DNA of 64,000 bases, from positions 424,080,001 to 424,144,000 of the forward strand of contig OZ024740.1 of NCBI GenBank assembly GCA_964016885.1, in the 5' to 3' direction. Below, piece after piece: positions 553-52,126 of the stretch. The translations under genes were made by a program, and so were the position numbers. Numbering within the stretch: the stretch's first letter is position 1; the number at the start of each line of letters is the position of its first letter. The notes under the pieces are model-generated. The model did not search any database. It saw only the letters and a list, made by a program, of their open reading frames with translations, and was not told the DNA's origin. This DNA is from Eledone cirrhosa. Lineage: Eukaryota.

Positions 553-1294
553 ACTTGGGTCACTCGGTCATTCAGGAAGGGACCCATCGTGACTTGGGTC
601 AGTCAGTCATTCAGGAAGGGACTCATCATGACTTGGGTCAGTCAGTCATTCAGGAAGGGACACATTGTGACTTGGGTCAGTCAGTCATTCAGGAAAGGAC
701 CTGTCATGACTTGAGTCAGTCAGTCATTCAGGAAGGGACTCATCATGACTTGGGTCAGTCAGTCATTCAGGAAGGGACTCATCATGACTTGGGTCAGTCA
801 GTCATTCAGGAAGGGACTCATCATGACTTGGGTCAGTCAGTCATTCAGGAAGGGACACATTGTGACTTGGGTCAGTCAGTCATTCAGGAAGGAACTCATC
901 GTGACTTGGGTCAGTCAGTCATTCAGGAAGGGACTCATCATGACTTGGGTCAGTCAGTCATTCAGGAAGGGACTCATCATGACTTGGGTCAGTCAGTCAT
1001 TCAGGAAGGGACTCATCATGACTTGGGTCAGTCAGTCATTCAGGAAGGGACTCATCATGACTTGGGTCAGTCAGTCATTCAGGAAGGGACACATTGTGAC
1101 TTGGGTCAGTCAGTCATTGAGGAAAGGACCTGTCATGACTTGGGTCAGTCAGTCATTCAGGAAGGGACTCATCATGACTTGGGTCAGTCCGTCATTAAGG
1201 AAGGGACCCATCGTGACTTGGGTCAGTCAGTCATTCAGGAAGGGACCCATCGTGACTTGGGTCAGTCAGTCATTCAGGAAAGGACCTATCATGA
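553..1294. repeat. 39-bp minisatellite, about 19 copies (consensus gacttgggtcagtcagtcattcaggaagggactcatcat)
   Basis: Tandem unit read directly. It explains the 13-aa periodicity (DLGQSVIQEGTHH) of ORFs 498..1355 and 745..1335. Confidence 0.97.
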
Positions 1295-2380: not shown

Positions 2381-5300
2381 CCCATTAATTGGTGACAGGG
2401 ACATAGCAGTGATCATACTCTCCATTAATTGGTAGCAGGGACATAGCAGTGATCATATTCTCTATTAATTGGTGGCAGGGACATAGCAGTGATCATACTC
2501 TCCATTAATTGGTAGCAGGGACATAGCAGTGATCATATTCTCCATTAATTGGTAGCAGGGACATAGCAGTGATCATATTCTCCATTAATTGGTGACAGGG
2601 ACATAGCAGTGATCATACTCTCCATTAATTGGTAGCAGAGACATAGCAGTGATCATACTCTCCATTAATTGGTAGCAGAGACATAGCAGTGATCATATTC
2701 TCTATTAATTGGTGGCAGGGACATAGCAGTGATCATACTCTCCATTAATTGGTAGCAGGGACATAGCAGTGATCATATTCTCCATTAATTGGTGGCAGGG
2801 ACATAGCAGTGATCATATTCTCCATTAATTGGTGGCAGGGACATAGCAGTGATCATACTCTCCATTAATTGGTAGCAGGGACATAGCAGTGATCATATTC
2901 TCCATTAATTGGTGACAGAGACATAGCAGTGATCATATTCTCCATTAATTGGTGGCAGGGACATAGCAGTGATCATACTCTCCATTAATTGGTAGCAGAG
3001 ACATAGCAGTGATCATACTCTCCATTAATTGGTAGCAGAGACATAGCAGTGATCATACTCTCCATTAATTAGTAGCAGAGACATAGCAGTGATCATATTC
3101 TCCATTAATTGGTAGCAGGGACATAGCAGTGATCATACTCTCCATTAATTGGTAGCAGGGACATAGCAGTGATCATACTCTCCATTAATTGGTAGCAGGG
3201 ACATAGCAGTGATCATACTCTCTATTAATTGGTGGCAGGTACATAGCAGTGATCATACTCTCCATTAATTGGTGACAGGGACATAGCAGTGATCATATTC
3301 TCTATTAATTGGTGGCAGGTACATAGCAGTGATCATACTCTCCATTAATTGGTGACAGGGACATAGCAGTGATCATATTCTCCATTAATTGGTAGCAGGG
3401 ACATAGCAGTGATCATATTCTCCATTAATTGGTAGCAGGGACATAGCAGTGATCATATTCTCCATTAATTGGTAGCAGAGACATAGCAGTGATCATATTC
3501 TCCATTAATTGGTAGCAGAGACATAGCAGTCATCATACTCTCCATTAATTGGTCGCAGAGACATAGCAGTGATCATATTCTCCATTAATTGGTAGCAGAG
3601 ACATAGCAGTGATCATATTCTCCATTAATTGGTAGCAGAGACATAGCAGTCATCATACTCTCCATTAATTGGTCGCAGAGACATAGCAGTGATCATATTC
3701 TCCATTAATTGGTAGCAGAGACATAGCAGTGATCATATTCTCCATTAATTGGTAGCAGGGACATAGCAGTCATCATACTCTCCATTAATTGGTAGCAGGG
3801 ACATAGCAGTGATCATATTCTCCATTAATTGGTAGCAGGGACATAGCAGTGATCATATTCTCCATTAATTGGTAGCAGGGACATAGCAGTGATCATATTC
3901 TCCATTAATTGGTAGCAGGGACATAGCAGTGATCATATTCTCCATTAATTGGTAGCAGAGACATAGCAGTCATCATACTCTCCATTAATTGGTAGCAGGG
4001 ACATAGCAGTCATCATACTCTCCATTAATTGGTAGCAGGGACATAGCAGTGATCATACTCTCCATTAATTGGTAGCAGGGACATAGCAGTGATCATATTC
4101 TCCATTAATTGGTAGCAGGGACATAGCAGTGATCATATTCTCTATTAATTGGTGGCAGGGACATAGCAGTGATCATATTCTCTATTAATTGGTGGCAGGG
4201 ACATAGCAGTGATCATATTCTCCATTAATTGGTGACAGGGACATAGCAGTGATCATATTCTCCATTAATTGGTAGCAGGGACATAGCAGTGATCATATTC
4301 TCTATTAATTGGTGGCAGGGACATAGCAGTGATCATATTCTCCATTAATTGGTGACAGGGACATAGCAGTGATCATATTCTCCATTAATTGGTAGCAGGG
4401 ACATAGCAGTGAGCATACTCTCCATTAATTGGTAGCAGGGACATAGCAGTGATCATACTCTCCATTAATTGGTAGCAGAGACATAGCAGTGATCATATTC
4501 TCCATTAATTGGTAGCAGAGACATAGCGGTGATCATATTCTCCATTAATTGGTAGCAGAGACATAGCAGTGATCATACTCTCCATTAATTAGTAGCAGAG
4601 ACATAGCAGTGATCATATTCTCCATTAATTGGTAGCAGAGACATAGCAGTGATCATATTCTCCATTAATTGGTAGCAGAGACATAGCAGTGAGCATACTC
4701 TCCATTAATTGGTAGCAGGGACATAGCAGTCATCATACTCTCCATTAATTGGTGACAGGGACATAGCAGTCATCATACTCTCCATTAATTGGTAGCAGGG
4801 ACATAGCAGTGATCATATTCTCCATTAATTGGTAGCAGGGACATAGCAGTGCTCATATTCTCCATTAATTGGTAGCAGGGACATAGCAGTGATCATATTC
4901 TCTATTAATTGGTGGCAGGGACATAGCAGTGATCATATTCTCCATTAATTGGTGACAGGGACATAGCAGTGATCATATTCTCCATTAATTGGTAGCAGGG
5001 ACATAGCAGTCATCATACTCTCCATTAATTGGTAGCAGGGACATAGCAGTGATCATATTCTCCATTAATTGGTAGCAGGGACATAGCAGTGATCATACTC
5101 TCCATTAATTGGTAGCAGAGACATAGCAGTGATCATATTCTCCATTAATTGGTAGCAGAGACATAGCAGTGATCATATTCTCCATTAATTGGTAGCAGAG
5201 ACATAGCAGTGATCATATTCTCCATTAATTGGTAGCAGGGACATAGCAGTGATCATACTCTCCATTAATTGGTAGCAGGGACATAGCAGTGATCATACTC

Positions 5301-7451
5301 TCCATTAATTGGTAGCAGAGACATAGCAGTGATCATATTCTCCATTAATTGGTAGCAGGGACATAGCAGTGATCATACTCTCCATTAATTGGTAGCAGAG
5401 ACATAGCAGTGATCATATCCTCCATTAATTGGTAGCAGGGACATAGCAGTGATCATACTCTCCATTAATTGGTAGCAGGGACATAGCAGTGCTCATATTC
5501 TCTATTAATTGGTGGCAGGGACATAGCAGTGATCATATTCTCTATTAATTGGTGGCAGGGACATAGCAGTGATCATACTCTCCATTAATTGGTGACAGGG
5601 ACATAGCAGTGATCATACTCTCCATTAATCGGTAGCAGAGACATAGCAGTGATCATACTCTCCATTAATTGGTAGCAGAGACATAGCAGTGATCATATTC
5701 TCCATTAATTGGTGACAGGGACATAGCAGTGATCATACTCTCCATTAATCGGTAGCAGAGACATAGCAGTGATCATATTCTCCATTAATTGGTGGCAGGG
5801 ACATAGCAGTGATCATATTCTCTATTAATTGGTGACAGGGACATAGCAGTGATCATATTCTCTATTAATTGGTAGCAGGGACATAGCAGTGATCATATTC
5901 TCTATTAATTGGTGGCAGGGACATAGCAGTGATCATATTCTCCATTAATTGGTGGAAGGGACATAGCAGTGATCATATTCTTCATTAATTGGTGGCAGGG
6001 ACATAGCAGTGATCATACTCTCTATTAATTGGTGGCAGGGACATAGCAGTGATCATACTCTCCATTAATTGGTAGCAGGGACATAGCAGTGATCATATTC
6101 TCCATTAATTGGTGGCAGGGACATAGCAGTGATCATATTCTCCATTAATTGGTGGCAGGGACATAGCAGTGATCATACTCTCCATTAATTGGTGACAGGG
6201 ACATAGCAGTGATCATATTCTTCATTAATTGGTGGCAGGGACATAGCAGTGATCATATTCTCCATTAATTGGTAGCAGGGACATAGCAGTCATCATACTC
6301 TCCATTAATTGGTAGCAGGGACATAGCAGTCATCATACTCTCCATTAATTGGTGGCAGGGACATAGCAGTGATCATATTCTCCATTAATTGGTGGCAGGG
6401 ACATAGCAGTGATCATATTCTCTATTAATTGGTGGCAGGTACATAGCAGTGATCATACTCTCCATTAATTGGTGACAGGGACATAGCAGTGATCATACAC
6501 TCCATTAATTGGTAGCAGGGACATAGCAGTGATCATATTCTCTATTAATTGGTGACAGGGACATAGCAGTGATCATATTCTCTATTAATTGGTGGCAGGG
6601 ACATAGCAGTGATCATTTTCTCCATTAATTGGTGGCAGGGACATAGCAGTGATCATACTCTCCATTAAATGGTAGCAGGGATACAGCAGTGATCATACTC
6701 TCCATTAATTGGTAGCAGAGACATAGCAGTGATCATATTCTCCATTAATTGGTGGCAGGGACATAGCAGTGATCATATCCTCCATTAATTGGTGACAGGG
6801 ACATAGCAGTGATCATACTCTCCATTAATTGGTAGCAGAGACATAGCAGTGATCATACTCTCCATTAATTGGTCGCAGAGACATAGCAGTGATCATATTC
6901 TCTATTAATTGGTAGCAGAGACATAGCAGTGATCATATTCTCCATTAATTGGTAGCAGAGACATAGCAGTGATCATATTCTCCATTAATTGGTAGCAGGG
7001 ACATAGCAGTGATCATATTCTCCATTAATTGGTAGCAGGGACATAGCAGTGATCATATTCTCTATTAATTGGTGACAGGGACATAGCAGTGATCATATTC
7101 TCTATTAATTGGTAGCAGGGACATAGCAGTGATCATATTCTCCATTAATTGGTAGCAGGGACATAGCAGTGATCATATTCTCCATTAATTGGTGGCAGGG
7201 ACATAGCAGTGATCATATCCTCCATTAATTGGTGACAGGGACATAGCAGTGATCATATTCTCTATTAATTGGTAGCAGGGACATAGCAGTGATCATACTC
7301 TCCATTAATTGGTCGCAGAGACATAGCAGTGATCATATTCTCCATTAATTGGTAGCAGGGACATAGCAGTGATCATATTCTCCATTAATTGGTGGCAGGG
7401 ACATAGCAGTGATCATACTCTCCATTAATTGGTAGCAGGAACATTGCAGTG
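2381..7451. repeat. 40-bp minisatellite, about 127 copies (consensus tccattaattggtagcagggacatagcagtgatcatattc)
   Basis: Strict 40-bp phase over 5.07 kb with substitution variants only. Confidence 0.99.
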
Positions 7452-9834: not shown

Positions 9835-10096
9835 AATAATAAATTTGAAGACTAAAATCCAAAGAGGGCTCGATAAGGATAAATATATATCAAATATATA
9901 AGAACCGTAGACCAAATATTTATTAAAATAACAGATTAAAGTTTAAGCAAAGAATCGCTGCTTTCACCTTTAATAAATATATATATATATATATTAAAGT
10001 TTAAACAAGGTTCAATGAATAAATCAAAGAATAAAGTTTTACTGCCATGACTGAATTTTAACCATCTACTTAGTCAGGGTATGTCATGCATCATCT

Positions 10097-10163
10097 TATT
10101 TTATCTGATGAGAACGTACTGTTGAAGATAGCTCAGTACGTCTGAAATATGTATAATAAAATA
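10097..10163 (+). ncRNA. Type I hammerhead ribozyme motif, minimal form with short palindromic stem III
   Basis: Stem I TATTTTAT/ATAAAATA; core CTGATGA (10105-11); stem II ACGTACTG/CAGTACGT; GAAA (10144-47); stem III TA-TG-TA; NUH = AUA with predicted cut after 10155. Confidence 0.7.
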
Positions 10164-11230
10164 TACTTGATCACACGAATGTCTATTTTTGTTAATATTT
10201 TGAATTAATATATATATATATATATATTCAGCATATGCAGACAATACAATGATGGATATGATAGATATTGGTTTGTTTATATATATTTCTTTGCACACAC
10301 TCACACAACCATGCTCATTCTCCATTTAAGACTGGAAATGGTTTTAACTGTATTGATTTATGTAAGAAATGAAAGCTCCTTTGTTTTGTTTGTTCCACTT
10401 CAAGAAACGTGTTGGAAGGGTTTTTCAAGCTCAAAGGTTCATGTTTGAGAGTACATTTGTCAAAACATGTTTTGATTACATGGACTGTTTTAGTTAAATC
10501 CAAAGAATACATAAACAGAAATACAGATGTTCAAATTTAGTATTATATACATATATATATATATATATGTTCATATACACATATAGAATATATATATATG
10601 AATGATATTTGTTTTTGAAATGCGCATAATAAAATACATGGAACTCTTTTAACCATCTTTTGTTCTTATATATTTTATATATATATATATGTGTGTGAAC
10701 CTTTGTTTGGCAAGCTTTCTATGGTTAGATGCCATTCCTGTCACCAACCACTTTACAGCATGTAGTGTATATACATGTATATGTTCTGTATGACCTCGAC
10801 TGCCTCAAATAGGACAACCCATCTAACCCATGCTAGCATGGAAAATGGACATTAACCGGTGATGATAATGATGTCCCACTCATATACCCAACACACTGTT
10901 ACATCATTAATACACACACTTTTCCATAGAAGCACCATACACATAAACACACAAATGTAAAAAATAATATCTCGCGACTCAAATCTCCCCCAAACACCTT
11001 CATACACAAACCTTTCCAAAAACAGGCCATACTTGAACATGTACTACACAACTCCACACAACATACTGTGAGCTGCTGACATATGAACACACACACATTT
11101 TTTACCTCCCCTTTCTAATATCTTTTAGGCAAAAGGCAATCTAAACTCATTCTTTTCCAGTCCAGTAAGACTGCCATTTGGCACATGTTTTTTTCTCATC
11201 CCTTTTTTTCTCTTTTTCTCAAACATTATG

Positions 11231-40604: not shown

Positions 40605-40941
40605 ATCATCATCATTTCATTTTACGTCCACTTTTTCCCTGCTTGCAAGGGTGGGACGGGAACTGATTCTGGCTTGATTTCTACAGCTGGATGCCCTTCC
40701 TAACACCAACCTCGTTTACAGTGAGTGCTGGGTACTTTTTTGCCGTGGCACCTCCACCACCACTTTCCAGTGGAATTATAGGGACCTCAGTGCCTATCAT
40801 CTCATTTCTACAGCTGAGTTAACTGGAGCAATGTGAAATAAAGTGTCTTGCTCAAGGAAACAACACATCACCCAGTCTGAGAATTGAACTCACAACCTTT
40901 CGATTGCAAGGCCAATGCTCTAACCACTAAGCCATGTGCCT

Positions 40942-51467: not shown

Positions 51468-52126
51468 TCATCATCATCATCATCACCGTTTTACGTCCGT
51501 TCTTCCACGCTAGCATGGGTTAGACGGGTTGTCCTGTTGTGGGCAGTGTCTGGTCGGCTGACCATGCCTTGCTCATACAGGAACTGATTTGGCTTGATTT
51601 CTACAGCTGGATGCCCGTCCTAACACCAACCTCATTTACAGTGAGTGCTGGGTGCTTTTTCGTGGTGCCTACATGTCCACTTTACAGTGTGGGCTGGGTG
51701 CTTTTGGGATGATGATGATGTATATATATATATACATCATCATCATCATCATCATACGTTCATTCTTCCACGCTATCATGGGTTAGACGAGTTTTCCTGT
51801 TGTGGGCAGTCTCCGGTTGGCTGACCATGTCTTGCTCATACGGGAACTGATTCTGGCTTGATTTCTACAACTGGATGCCCTTCCTAACACCAACTTCATT
51901 TACAGTGAGTGGTGGGTTCTTTTTTGCCGTGGCACCTCCACGACCACTTTGTAGTGTAATGATCGGGACCCCAGTCCTATCATCTCATTTCTACAGCTGA
52001 GTAAACTGGAGCAATGTGAAATAAAGTGTCTTGCTTAAGGAAACAACACATCACCCGGTCTGAGAATTGAACTCACAACCTTTCGATTGCAAGGCAAATG
52101 CTCTAACCACTAAGCCATGTGCCTCC
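51468..52126 (-). mobile_element. RTE 3' UTR fragment (51468-51708) followed by a full SINE A with RTE tail (51735-52126)
   Basis: Matches the RTE 3' UTR at 24420-24692 and the SINE A head. Confidence 0.85.

What the first reader, a model, noticed from the sequence alone, without database searches (positions are those of the whole stretch)
10097..10163. Well-formed minimal type I hammerhead ribozyme in a short non-coding module between (TA)n tracts
Seen: all core nucleotides in order (CUGAUGA, GAAA, AUA cleavage triplet), an 8-bp stem I, an 8-bp perfect stem II core with GU/AC at its base, and a tiny stem III (ATATGTAT, one CpG decay from the palindrome ATACGTAT). Known: minimal type I hammerheads with palindromic stem III occur in Penelope-like elements and animal non-LTR retrozymes and often cleave as dimers. 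Inference: the 9995-10210 module is a non-autonomous ribozyme-bearing retroelement that inserts into TA repeats.
Basis: partly seen in the sequence, partly recalled or inferred. Interest (0 to 1): 0.75.

Follow-up and report, generated by a model that had tools for sequence, protein, structure and literature searches.

The report
Penelope retroelement stub with hammerhead
The hammerhead ribozyme motif is really there, but it is the ordinary ribozyme-bearing end of an abundant Penelope-like jumping gene, likely of the known Hydra clade, sitting in a TA repeat as two short head-to-head pieces; copies of the family pile up at one start point that likely marks where its RNA begins.

Summary
The hammerhead at 10097-10163 is real. 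It belongs to a repeat with 588 exact core copies, and its helices covary across sister families. It is not a separate retrozyme. It is the end repeat (pLTR) of a protein-coding Penelope-like element with Hydra-clade motifs; a pLTR-ORF-pLTR copy has a 4,693-bp unit. The window module is two head-to-head arms in (TA)n, the layout of 43 of 63 short insertions sampled. The 'perfect 8-bp stem II' is a private change that closes a conserved pyrimidine mismatch. The stem III octamer is the family norm (144 of 152), not CpG decay. Added here: 45 of 72 truncated arms start 55-70 nt upstream of the core, peaking at an initiator-like A 31 nt after a TATA box; window 10041 is that base. A sister family does the same (15 of 24). 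No pile-up marks the cut site, so templates were likely uncleaved. Cleavage and transcription are untested. This scan reached the same Hydra-PLE reading on other DNA before.

The parts
9978..9994 (.). Left (TA)n target tract
   Evidence: sequence; 87 of 99 sampled arm 3' ends run into TA
9994..10042 (-). Inverted short arm: last ~48 nt of the element's 3' tail (distal fixed end)
   Evidence: matches the tail of pLTR-ORF-pLTR copy L056 on the opposite strand, 93%; 34 of 99 arms end at this tail end
10041..10211 (+). Main arm: from the inferred RNA start (10041, position -64 from the core C) to the internal fixed end (+106)
   Evidence: 2 differences in 171 nt from L026; 59 of 99 arms end at +104..+107, 10 start at -64
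10041..10042 (+). Head-to-head junction with 2-nt microhomology; 10041 is the initiator-like A
10043..10081 (+). Predicted leader hairpin upstream of the ribozyme
   Evidence: predicted fold only
10097..10163 (+). Minimal type I hammerhead; predicted cut after 10155; private changes at 10113 and 10140
10208..10227 (.). Right (TA)n target tract
   Evidence: sequence

Best explanation
The module is a short two-armed insertion whose sequence is the ribozyme-bearing end repeat of an abundant protein-coding Penelope-like retrotransposon, likely of the Hydra clade, and it was likely made in one insertion event rather than copied as an element of its own. Inferred steps: the element's GIY-YIG endonuclease nicks a (TA)n tract on both strands. 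The RT primes two cDNAs on element RNA, one at an internal site (+106 from the core C) and one at the tail end about 95 nt further on. The two cDNAs are joined head to head. The main arm ran to position -64, which is likely the 5' end of the RNA (TATA box 31 nt upstream, initiator-like motif at the site), so this arm would be a complete copy of the RNA leader and would lack the TATA box. The hammerhead was likely uncut on the template. The family motif is under structural constraint (shown by covariation) and would cleave weakly, as a dimer or with protein help; the window copy is a slightly decayed one, predicted to fold less well. Confidence about 0.9 for the PLE-stub part, about 0.6 for the RNA-start part.
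For: [quoted passage not shown] L053 and L058 have the window's layout with a body of about 3.8 and 3.5 kb. Ends: 93 of 99 arms end at one of two sites; 45 of 72 truncated arms start in -70..-55; 43 of 63 short insertions pair one tail arm with one internal arm. Start site: 42 of 54 longer copies keep the TATA motif and 42 of 54 the initiator-like motif; that geometry occurs at 2 of 1,954 positions of the 3' UTR; sister family C has 15 of 24 truncated arms at -78..-68, around an initiator-like A at -72, with a CCAAT motif 56 nt upstream. Uncut templates: 1 of 11 and 0 of 20 arms that start between +1 and +106 start at +49..+53; 1 of 99 ends at +50. Structure: 15 of 22 pairs change on both sides, 0 of 500 shuffles reach this, slid controls pair 30-52% against 91%.
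Against: Pfam and PDB searches did not name the RT or the endonuclease; clade assignment rests on motifs, with no tree. The 4.7-kb unit is longer than the <3 kb given for Hydra elements and the RWK motif reads RWH/RWR. The -64 pile-up also lies at the 5' foot of a predicted hairpin, which could cause it without a start site. In family C the pile-up has ATAT microhomology to the TA target and no TATA box. In family B, read by eye from 16 motifs, some arms reach about -80, closer to its TATA-like motif than 31 nt, and the follow-up search returned nothing. A cap-derived G is unclear: G precedes the start A in 9 of 28 junctions, and several of these are explained by the partner arm. 19 of 63 short insertions had no partner arm within the 460-nt reference used. 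Motifs in the pair count were picked by a pairing descriptor, which raises the paired share.
Confidence: 0.87

Rival explanations
1. The module is a self-propagating non-autonomous element (retrozyme- or SINE-like) that borrows the PLE enzyme.
For: Short modules of similar size are common: the 22 best hits cover nearly the whole module at 89-95% identity. A preprint argues that animal retrozymes derive from PLE pLTRs (10.64898/2026.07.22.740005; abstract, introduction and part of methods read).
Against: Those hits were selected for likeness to the window copy. Junction regions are distinct in 108 of 108 arms (point changes add to this count, but the junctions listed differ too). Arms starting at -64 lack the TATA box. 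No head-to-tail array of the module was seen among the 100 places listed, except one local two-copy case (L128).
Confidence: 0.07
2. The parent is as described, but the -64 pile-up comes from RT release or cDNA-cDNA annealing at the leader hairpin, not from the RNA 5' end.
For: A hairpin is predicted from -62 to about -24; starts spread over -64 to -55 with a second peak at -58 (8 arms); some junctions hold fold-back pieces (L073, L079).
Against: The main peak sits on the initiator-like A at the textbook distance from a TATA box, and family C peaks on its own initiator-like A. Only 10 of 72 truncated arms start between -71 and -240.
Confidence: 0.3
3. The hammerhead-shaped RNA works mainly as a protein-binding or folding element and rarely cuts.
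For: No cut-site footprint in genomic arms; the active monomer fold is 5-10 kcal/mol above the best predicted fold and stem III is not formed; pair 10.1-11.1 is G-U rather than G-C in 147 of 152. In the anole element, ribozyme mutants still insert in vitro (PMC11167929, main text read).
Against: The catalytic core and triplet are invariant or nearly so in 15 aligned motifs from divergent families, and the stem III octamer stays self-complementary through double changes, though the descriptor fixed the core. Cut RNAs may simply not be templates.
Confidence: 0.2

Closest known systems
Hydra clade of C-terminal-endonuclease Penelope-like elements (Craig et al. 2021, PMC8557442; passages and supplementary file part 2 read), including Hydra-1_Obim
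   Same: Single RT-EN ORF; DKT; CxCx5C linker; no CCHH; CxxC and CxH around the conserved E and N; hammerhead in the pLTR; (TA)n targeting; inverted truncated copy and tail as in that paper's figure 2 legend.
   Different: Unit 4.7 kb with a 2-kb 3' UTR; RWH/RWR for RWK; tail about 95 nt, not 30-40; hammerhead unlike the listed Hydra-1_Obim motif (10-position stem II with a conserved mismatch at position 4, two-pair stem III).
Minimal and palindromic-helix-III hammerheads of metazoan PLEs (Cervera and de la Pena 2014, PMC4209133; parts 1-2 of 4 read)
   Same: Type I, long helix II, small self-complementary helix III, mostly solitary copies from truncated PLEs, some in opposite-strand pairs.
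   Different: G-U (or A-U in family B) at 10.1-11.1 instead of the conserved G-C; no extra base between 9 and 10.1; 8-bp helix I.
Anolis Poseidon PAc mechanism (Frangieh et al. 2024, PMC11167929; parts 1-2 of 4 read)
   Same: Two adjacent RT start sites that define the tail; AT-rich target cut on both strands; uncut RNA as the main template.
   Different: Here both start sites lie in the untranslated leader and carry 4-6 nt of TA-like microhomology; the ribozyme does not overlap the start codon.
Adineta vaga Pen2a pLTR (Arkhipova et al. 2013, PMC3846280; passages read)
   Same: Putative TATA box plus a TCACT initiator-like motif inside the pLTR; head-to-head inverted pLTRs.
   Different: There the promoter was proposed from motifs; here a pile-up of copy ends falls on the initiator. 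Drosophila Penelope has a TATA-less internal promoter (PMC2377424, passages).
Metazoan non-LTR retrozymes (Cervera and de la Pena 2020, PMC7229834; passages read)
   Same: Short, non-coding, low-GC, type I hammerhead, size near 170-400 nt.
   Different: Retrozymes are head-to-tail tandem repeats with canonical hammerheads and circular RNAs; this module is an inverted two-arm stub with one ribozyme.

Membership tests
Hydra-clade PLE (parent element) | Single ORF with RT and C-terminal GIY-YIG endonuclease | tested here: met
   750-aa frame in L052 with RT motifs and YIG near the C-terminus; Atlas look-alikes; Pfam itself gave no hit
Hydra-clade PLE (parent element) | DKG changed to DKT | tested here: met
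   DKT at residue 87 of the L052 frame
Hydra-clade PLE (parent element) | N-terminal RWK motif | tested here: inconclusive
   RWH in L052, RWR in L056
Hydra-clade PLE (parent element) | CxCx5C linker, no CCHH, CxxC and CxH beside conserved E and N | tested here: met
   L058 translation; the first linker Cys is lost in L026 and Cys residues are lost in L052
Hydra-clade PLE (parent element) | Hammerhead in pLTR; insertion into (TA)n | tested here: met
   L056 direct repeats; 87 of 99 ends in TA
Hydra-clade PLE (parent element) | Generally shorter than 3 kb (typical, not defining) | tested here: not met
   unit 4,693 bp
Hydra-clade PLE (parent element) | Groups with Hydra RTs in a tree | not tested
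Type I hammerhead ribozyme | Core nucleotides, NUH triplet and three helices in type I order | tested here: met
Type I hammerhead ribozyme | G10.1-C11.1 pair | tested here: not met
   G-U in 147 of 152 family motifs; a variant, not a loss of pairing
Type I hammerhead ribozyme | Self-cleavage | not testable with these tools
   no cut-site footprint in DNA copies; needs an in vitro assay
Non-LTR retrozyme | Head-to-tail tandem units, each with a hammerhead | tested here: not met
   close pairs among the 100 listed places are nearly all inverted
Non-LTR retrozyme | Propagates as a fixed non-coding unit | tested here: not met
   108 of 108 junction regions distinct
Non-LTR retrozyme | Expressed as circular RNA | not testable with these tools
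   needs RNA data

The most novel reading that the evidence does not exclude
The short stubs are complete run-off copies of the RNA leader, so a genome's stubs map a Penelope-like element's transcription start to the base. This family uses an upstream TATA promoter that sits in the 3' end of the preceding copy, which explains why only partial tandems can be active. Most templates pass an uncut hammerhead, and these families share a pyrimidine mismatch at stem II position 4 that may be a docking or protein contact of a distinct hammerhead subtype.
Probability: 0.5. Interest if true: 0.5.

Novelty: new member of a known kind. Interest (0 to 1): 0.3.

Why it matters
As a ribozyme in a Penelope-like element it is ordinary, and the layout is published. 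The value is mechanistic. How PLEs build pLTRs and inverted ends, and what their hammerheads do, is still open. This family gives base-level marks for two RT start sites, a likely RNA start and uncut templates, plus one conserved mismatch that is easy to test. It also warns that a single copy can mislead: the 'better' stem in this window is a private change.

Tried and rejected
Rfam at gathering and E-value thresholds: no hammerhead hit. Loose core pattern: at chance level. Folding 10090-10170 alone: z -2.05 and not the hammerhead fold; a 186-nt family copy was no better than shuffles. Pfam on four ORF pieces and on the 750-aa frame, and PDB by sequence: no relevant hit. The 799-aa frame in L038 is mostly a translated TA run. 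Two genome searches with AT-rich queries returned nothing, which shows nothing. Sequencing runs: no RNA holder listed; laying four contig sets showed presence only, with little cover in the two other organisms. CpG decay of stem III: rejected (1 of 152). Cleavage footprint at +51: looked for in two samples, not found; L067 (+52), L052 (about +48), L097 and L123 (3' end near +50) are isolated and blurred by TA microhomology. Cap-derived G: inconclusive. Naiad clade: rejected, the endonuclease is C-terminal. Earlier notes by sequence: none. Literature: searches listed no paper on this family, on copy-end pile-ups at a PLE start site, or on a conserved C.C mismatch in stem II; only listings were seen for most hits, subscription papers and Repbase are not covered, and the preprint's supplements were not seen. 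One of the 100 listed places was not recovered as a core arm; duplicates dropped before counts were L080, L083, L087, L193 and 14-15 overlapping loci.

Full report
Observation. Alone, this is weak evidence: the loose pattern is at chance level in the window (2 matches, 3.21 expected), Rfam reports no hammerhead, and the best predicted fold is not the ribozyme. Positions below are counted from the core C (10105 = 0).

Copy number. The module hits 1,751 candidates in the 3.0-Gb own genome, of which 40 were scored. The 45-nt majority core occurs 588 times exactly, control 0. Among 42 core-spanning arms not chosen by the core, 11 are exact, which gives a rough 2,200 arms.

The window copy against its family. 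It differs from natural copy L026 at 2 of 171 bases, 10113 and 10140. Among 152 family motifs, pair II.2 is G-C in 143 and position II.4 is C.C in 147; only the window copy has C-G there. The stem III octamer of the window is the majority form (144 of 152); the CpG form occurs once. The octamer is self-complementary with two G-U pairs, so no decay is needed to explain it.

Covariation. The flanks of fetched loci held 29 motifs of other families. All have C.C or C.U at II.4, which the descriptor did not require. On 15 aligned motifs, 91% of cells pair, 15 of 22 pairs change on both sides, no shuffle of 500 reaches this, and slid controls pair 30-52%. The two inner stem III pairs, counted as a palindrome, pair in 97% of cells with double changes. 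The motifs were chosen by a pairing descriptor, so the paired share is inflated; the variety of pair types is not imposed. Predicted energies put the active monomer 5.1 (L026) and 6.8 (window) kcal/mol above the best fold for the minimal motif and 7.0 and 9.8 in the leader, with stem III unformed. This fits the published view that such motifs need a dimer (PMC4209133) or protein help (PMC11167929).

Parent element. Flanks of L024, L026 and L003 encode a Cys-rich linker and a GIY-YIG-like domain. A protein search gave 158 matches from 142 scored of 76,180 candidates. L052 has a 750-aa open frame with RT motifs; L053 and L058 carry the inverted tail, a truncated ORF, the 3' UTR and the ribozyme in the window's order. 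L056 is pLTR-ORF-pLTR with a 4,693-bp unit and an ATG at +263. DKT, the CxCx5C linker, lack of CCHH, and CxxC and CxH beside the conserved E and N match the Hydra clade as described in PMC8557442; that paper lists an octopus Hydra family with a different ribozyme. RWK reads RWH or RWR, the unit is longer than typical, and no tree was built. Pfam and PDB did not name the protein; Atlas look-alikes carry HTH_animal, GIY-YIG and RVT_1.

Arm ends. From the first 100 of the 588 places, 99 arms in 88 loci were mapped. 3' ends: 59 at +104..+107, 34 at the tail end, 6 elsewhere; 87 run into TA. Of 63 short insertions, 43 join one tail arm to one internal arm head to head, 1 joins two internal arms, and 19 show no partner within the 460-nt reference. 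The window module is of the first kind: tail arm 9994-10042 inverted, main arm 10041-10211. This is the published PLE layout (PMC8557442) and fits two adjacent RT start sites (PMC11167929). The junction region is distinct in 108 of 108 arms that lack the upstream promoter, which argues against a self-copying module.

A likely RNA start. 45 of 72 truncated arms start at -70..-55, with 10 at -64 and 8 at -58; 10 start between -71 and -240. A second sample chosen by the tail alone has 13 of 51 arms in the same zone. Base -64 is the A of an initiator-like motif, 31 nt after TATAAA; each motif is kept in 42 of 54 longer copies (consensus patterns recalled). The pair of motifs occurs at 2 of 1,954 positions of the 3' UTR. 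The window's main arm starts at this base. In sister family C, 15 of 24 truncated arms start at -78..-68, around an initiator-like A at -72 with a CCAAT motif 56 nt upstream. Against: a predicted hairpin begins at -62; family C's site has TA microhomology and no TATA box; family B, read by eye, does not fit the 31-nt spacing; a cap-derived G is unclear (9 of 28). A TATA plus TCACT motif in a pLTR has a precedent in a rotifer element (PMC3846280).

Cleavage. If cut RNA were a common template, arms would start at +51 or end at +50. Only 1 of 11 and 0 of 20 arms starting in +1..+106 do so, and 1 of 99 ends at +50. Templates were therefore likely uncut, as in the anole element in vitro. This says nothing on whether other RNA molecules are cut.

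Earlier notes. I stated the PLE-stub reading before looking. A word search then showed 26 notes, 8 listed, most with the same Hydra-PLE reading on other DNA of this and other genomes. They are unchecked and are not counted as support. One pointed to a hairpin past the internal end, which is also visible.

Verdict. This is a new family of a known kind. Shown: the motif, its copy number, covariation, the coding parent, two fixed 3' ends, the 5' pile-up, unique junctions. Inferred: clade, priming mechanism, RNA start, uncut template, dimer or protein-assisted cleavage. Interest 0.3.

Noticed in passing
window 10601-10679: A 5'-truncated arm of a sister family (E): the 3' half of another hammerhead with a perfectly palindromic stem III octamer, 92% like L016 over 79 nt, ending in TA.
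   Followed up: partly
L002-L176 flanks: At least six sister hammerhead families turn up by chance in the flanks; all 29 non-family-A motifs have C.C (24) or C.U (5) at stem II position 4.
   Followed up: yes
tails of families A, B, C, E (e.g. L024, L110, L022, L016): A shared ACTC...GAGT inverted motif a few bases past the internal end, seen by eye; matches the hairpin noted in e1-9955801. It is not inside the window module.
   Followed up: partly
window 40873-40936 and 52060-52117: Two tRNA-like Rfam matches just above threshold, near-identical to each other, probably heads of a tRNA-derived SINE.
   Followed up: no
window 553-1294 and 2382-7451: Long minisatellites: 39-bp unit x19 and 40-bp unit x127.
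   Followed up: no
L008, L095, L114, L115: Another hammerhead type with a longer stem III and GUA triplet occurs in the flanks.
   Followed up: no
L056 4600-6600: The parent's 3' UTR is about 2 kb, 77% AT, and seems to hold an internal duplication (repeated hits about 540 nt apart).
   Followed up: no
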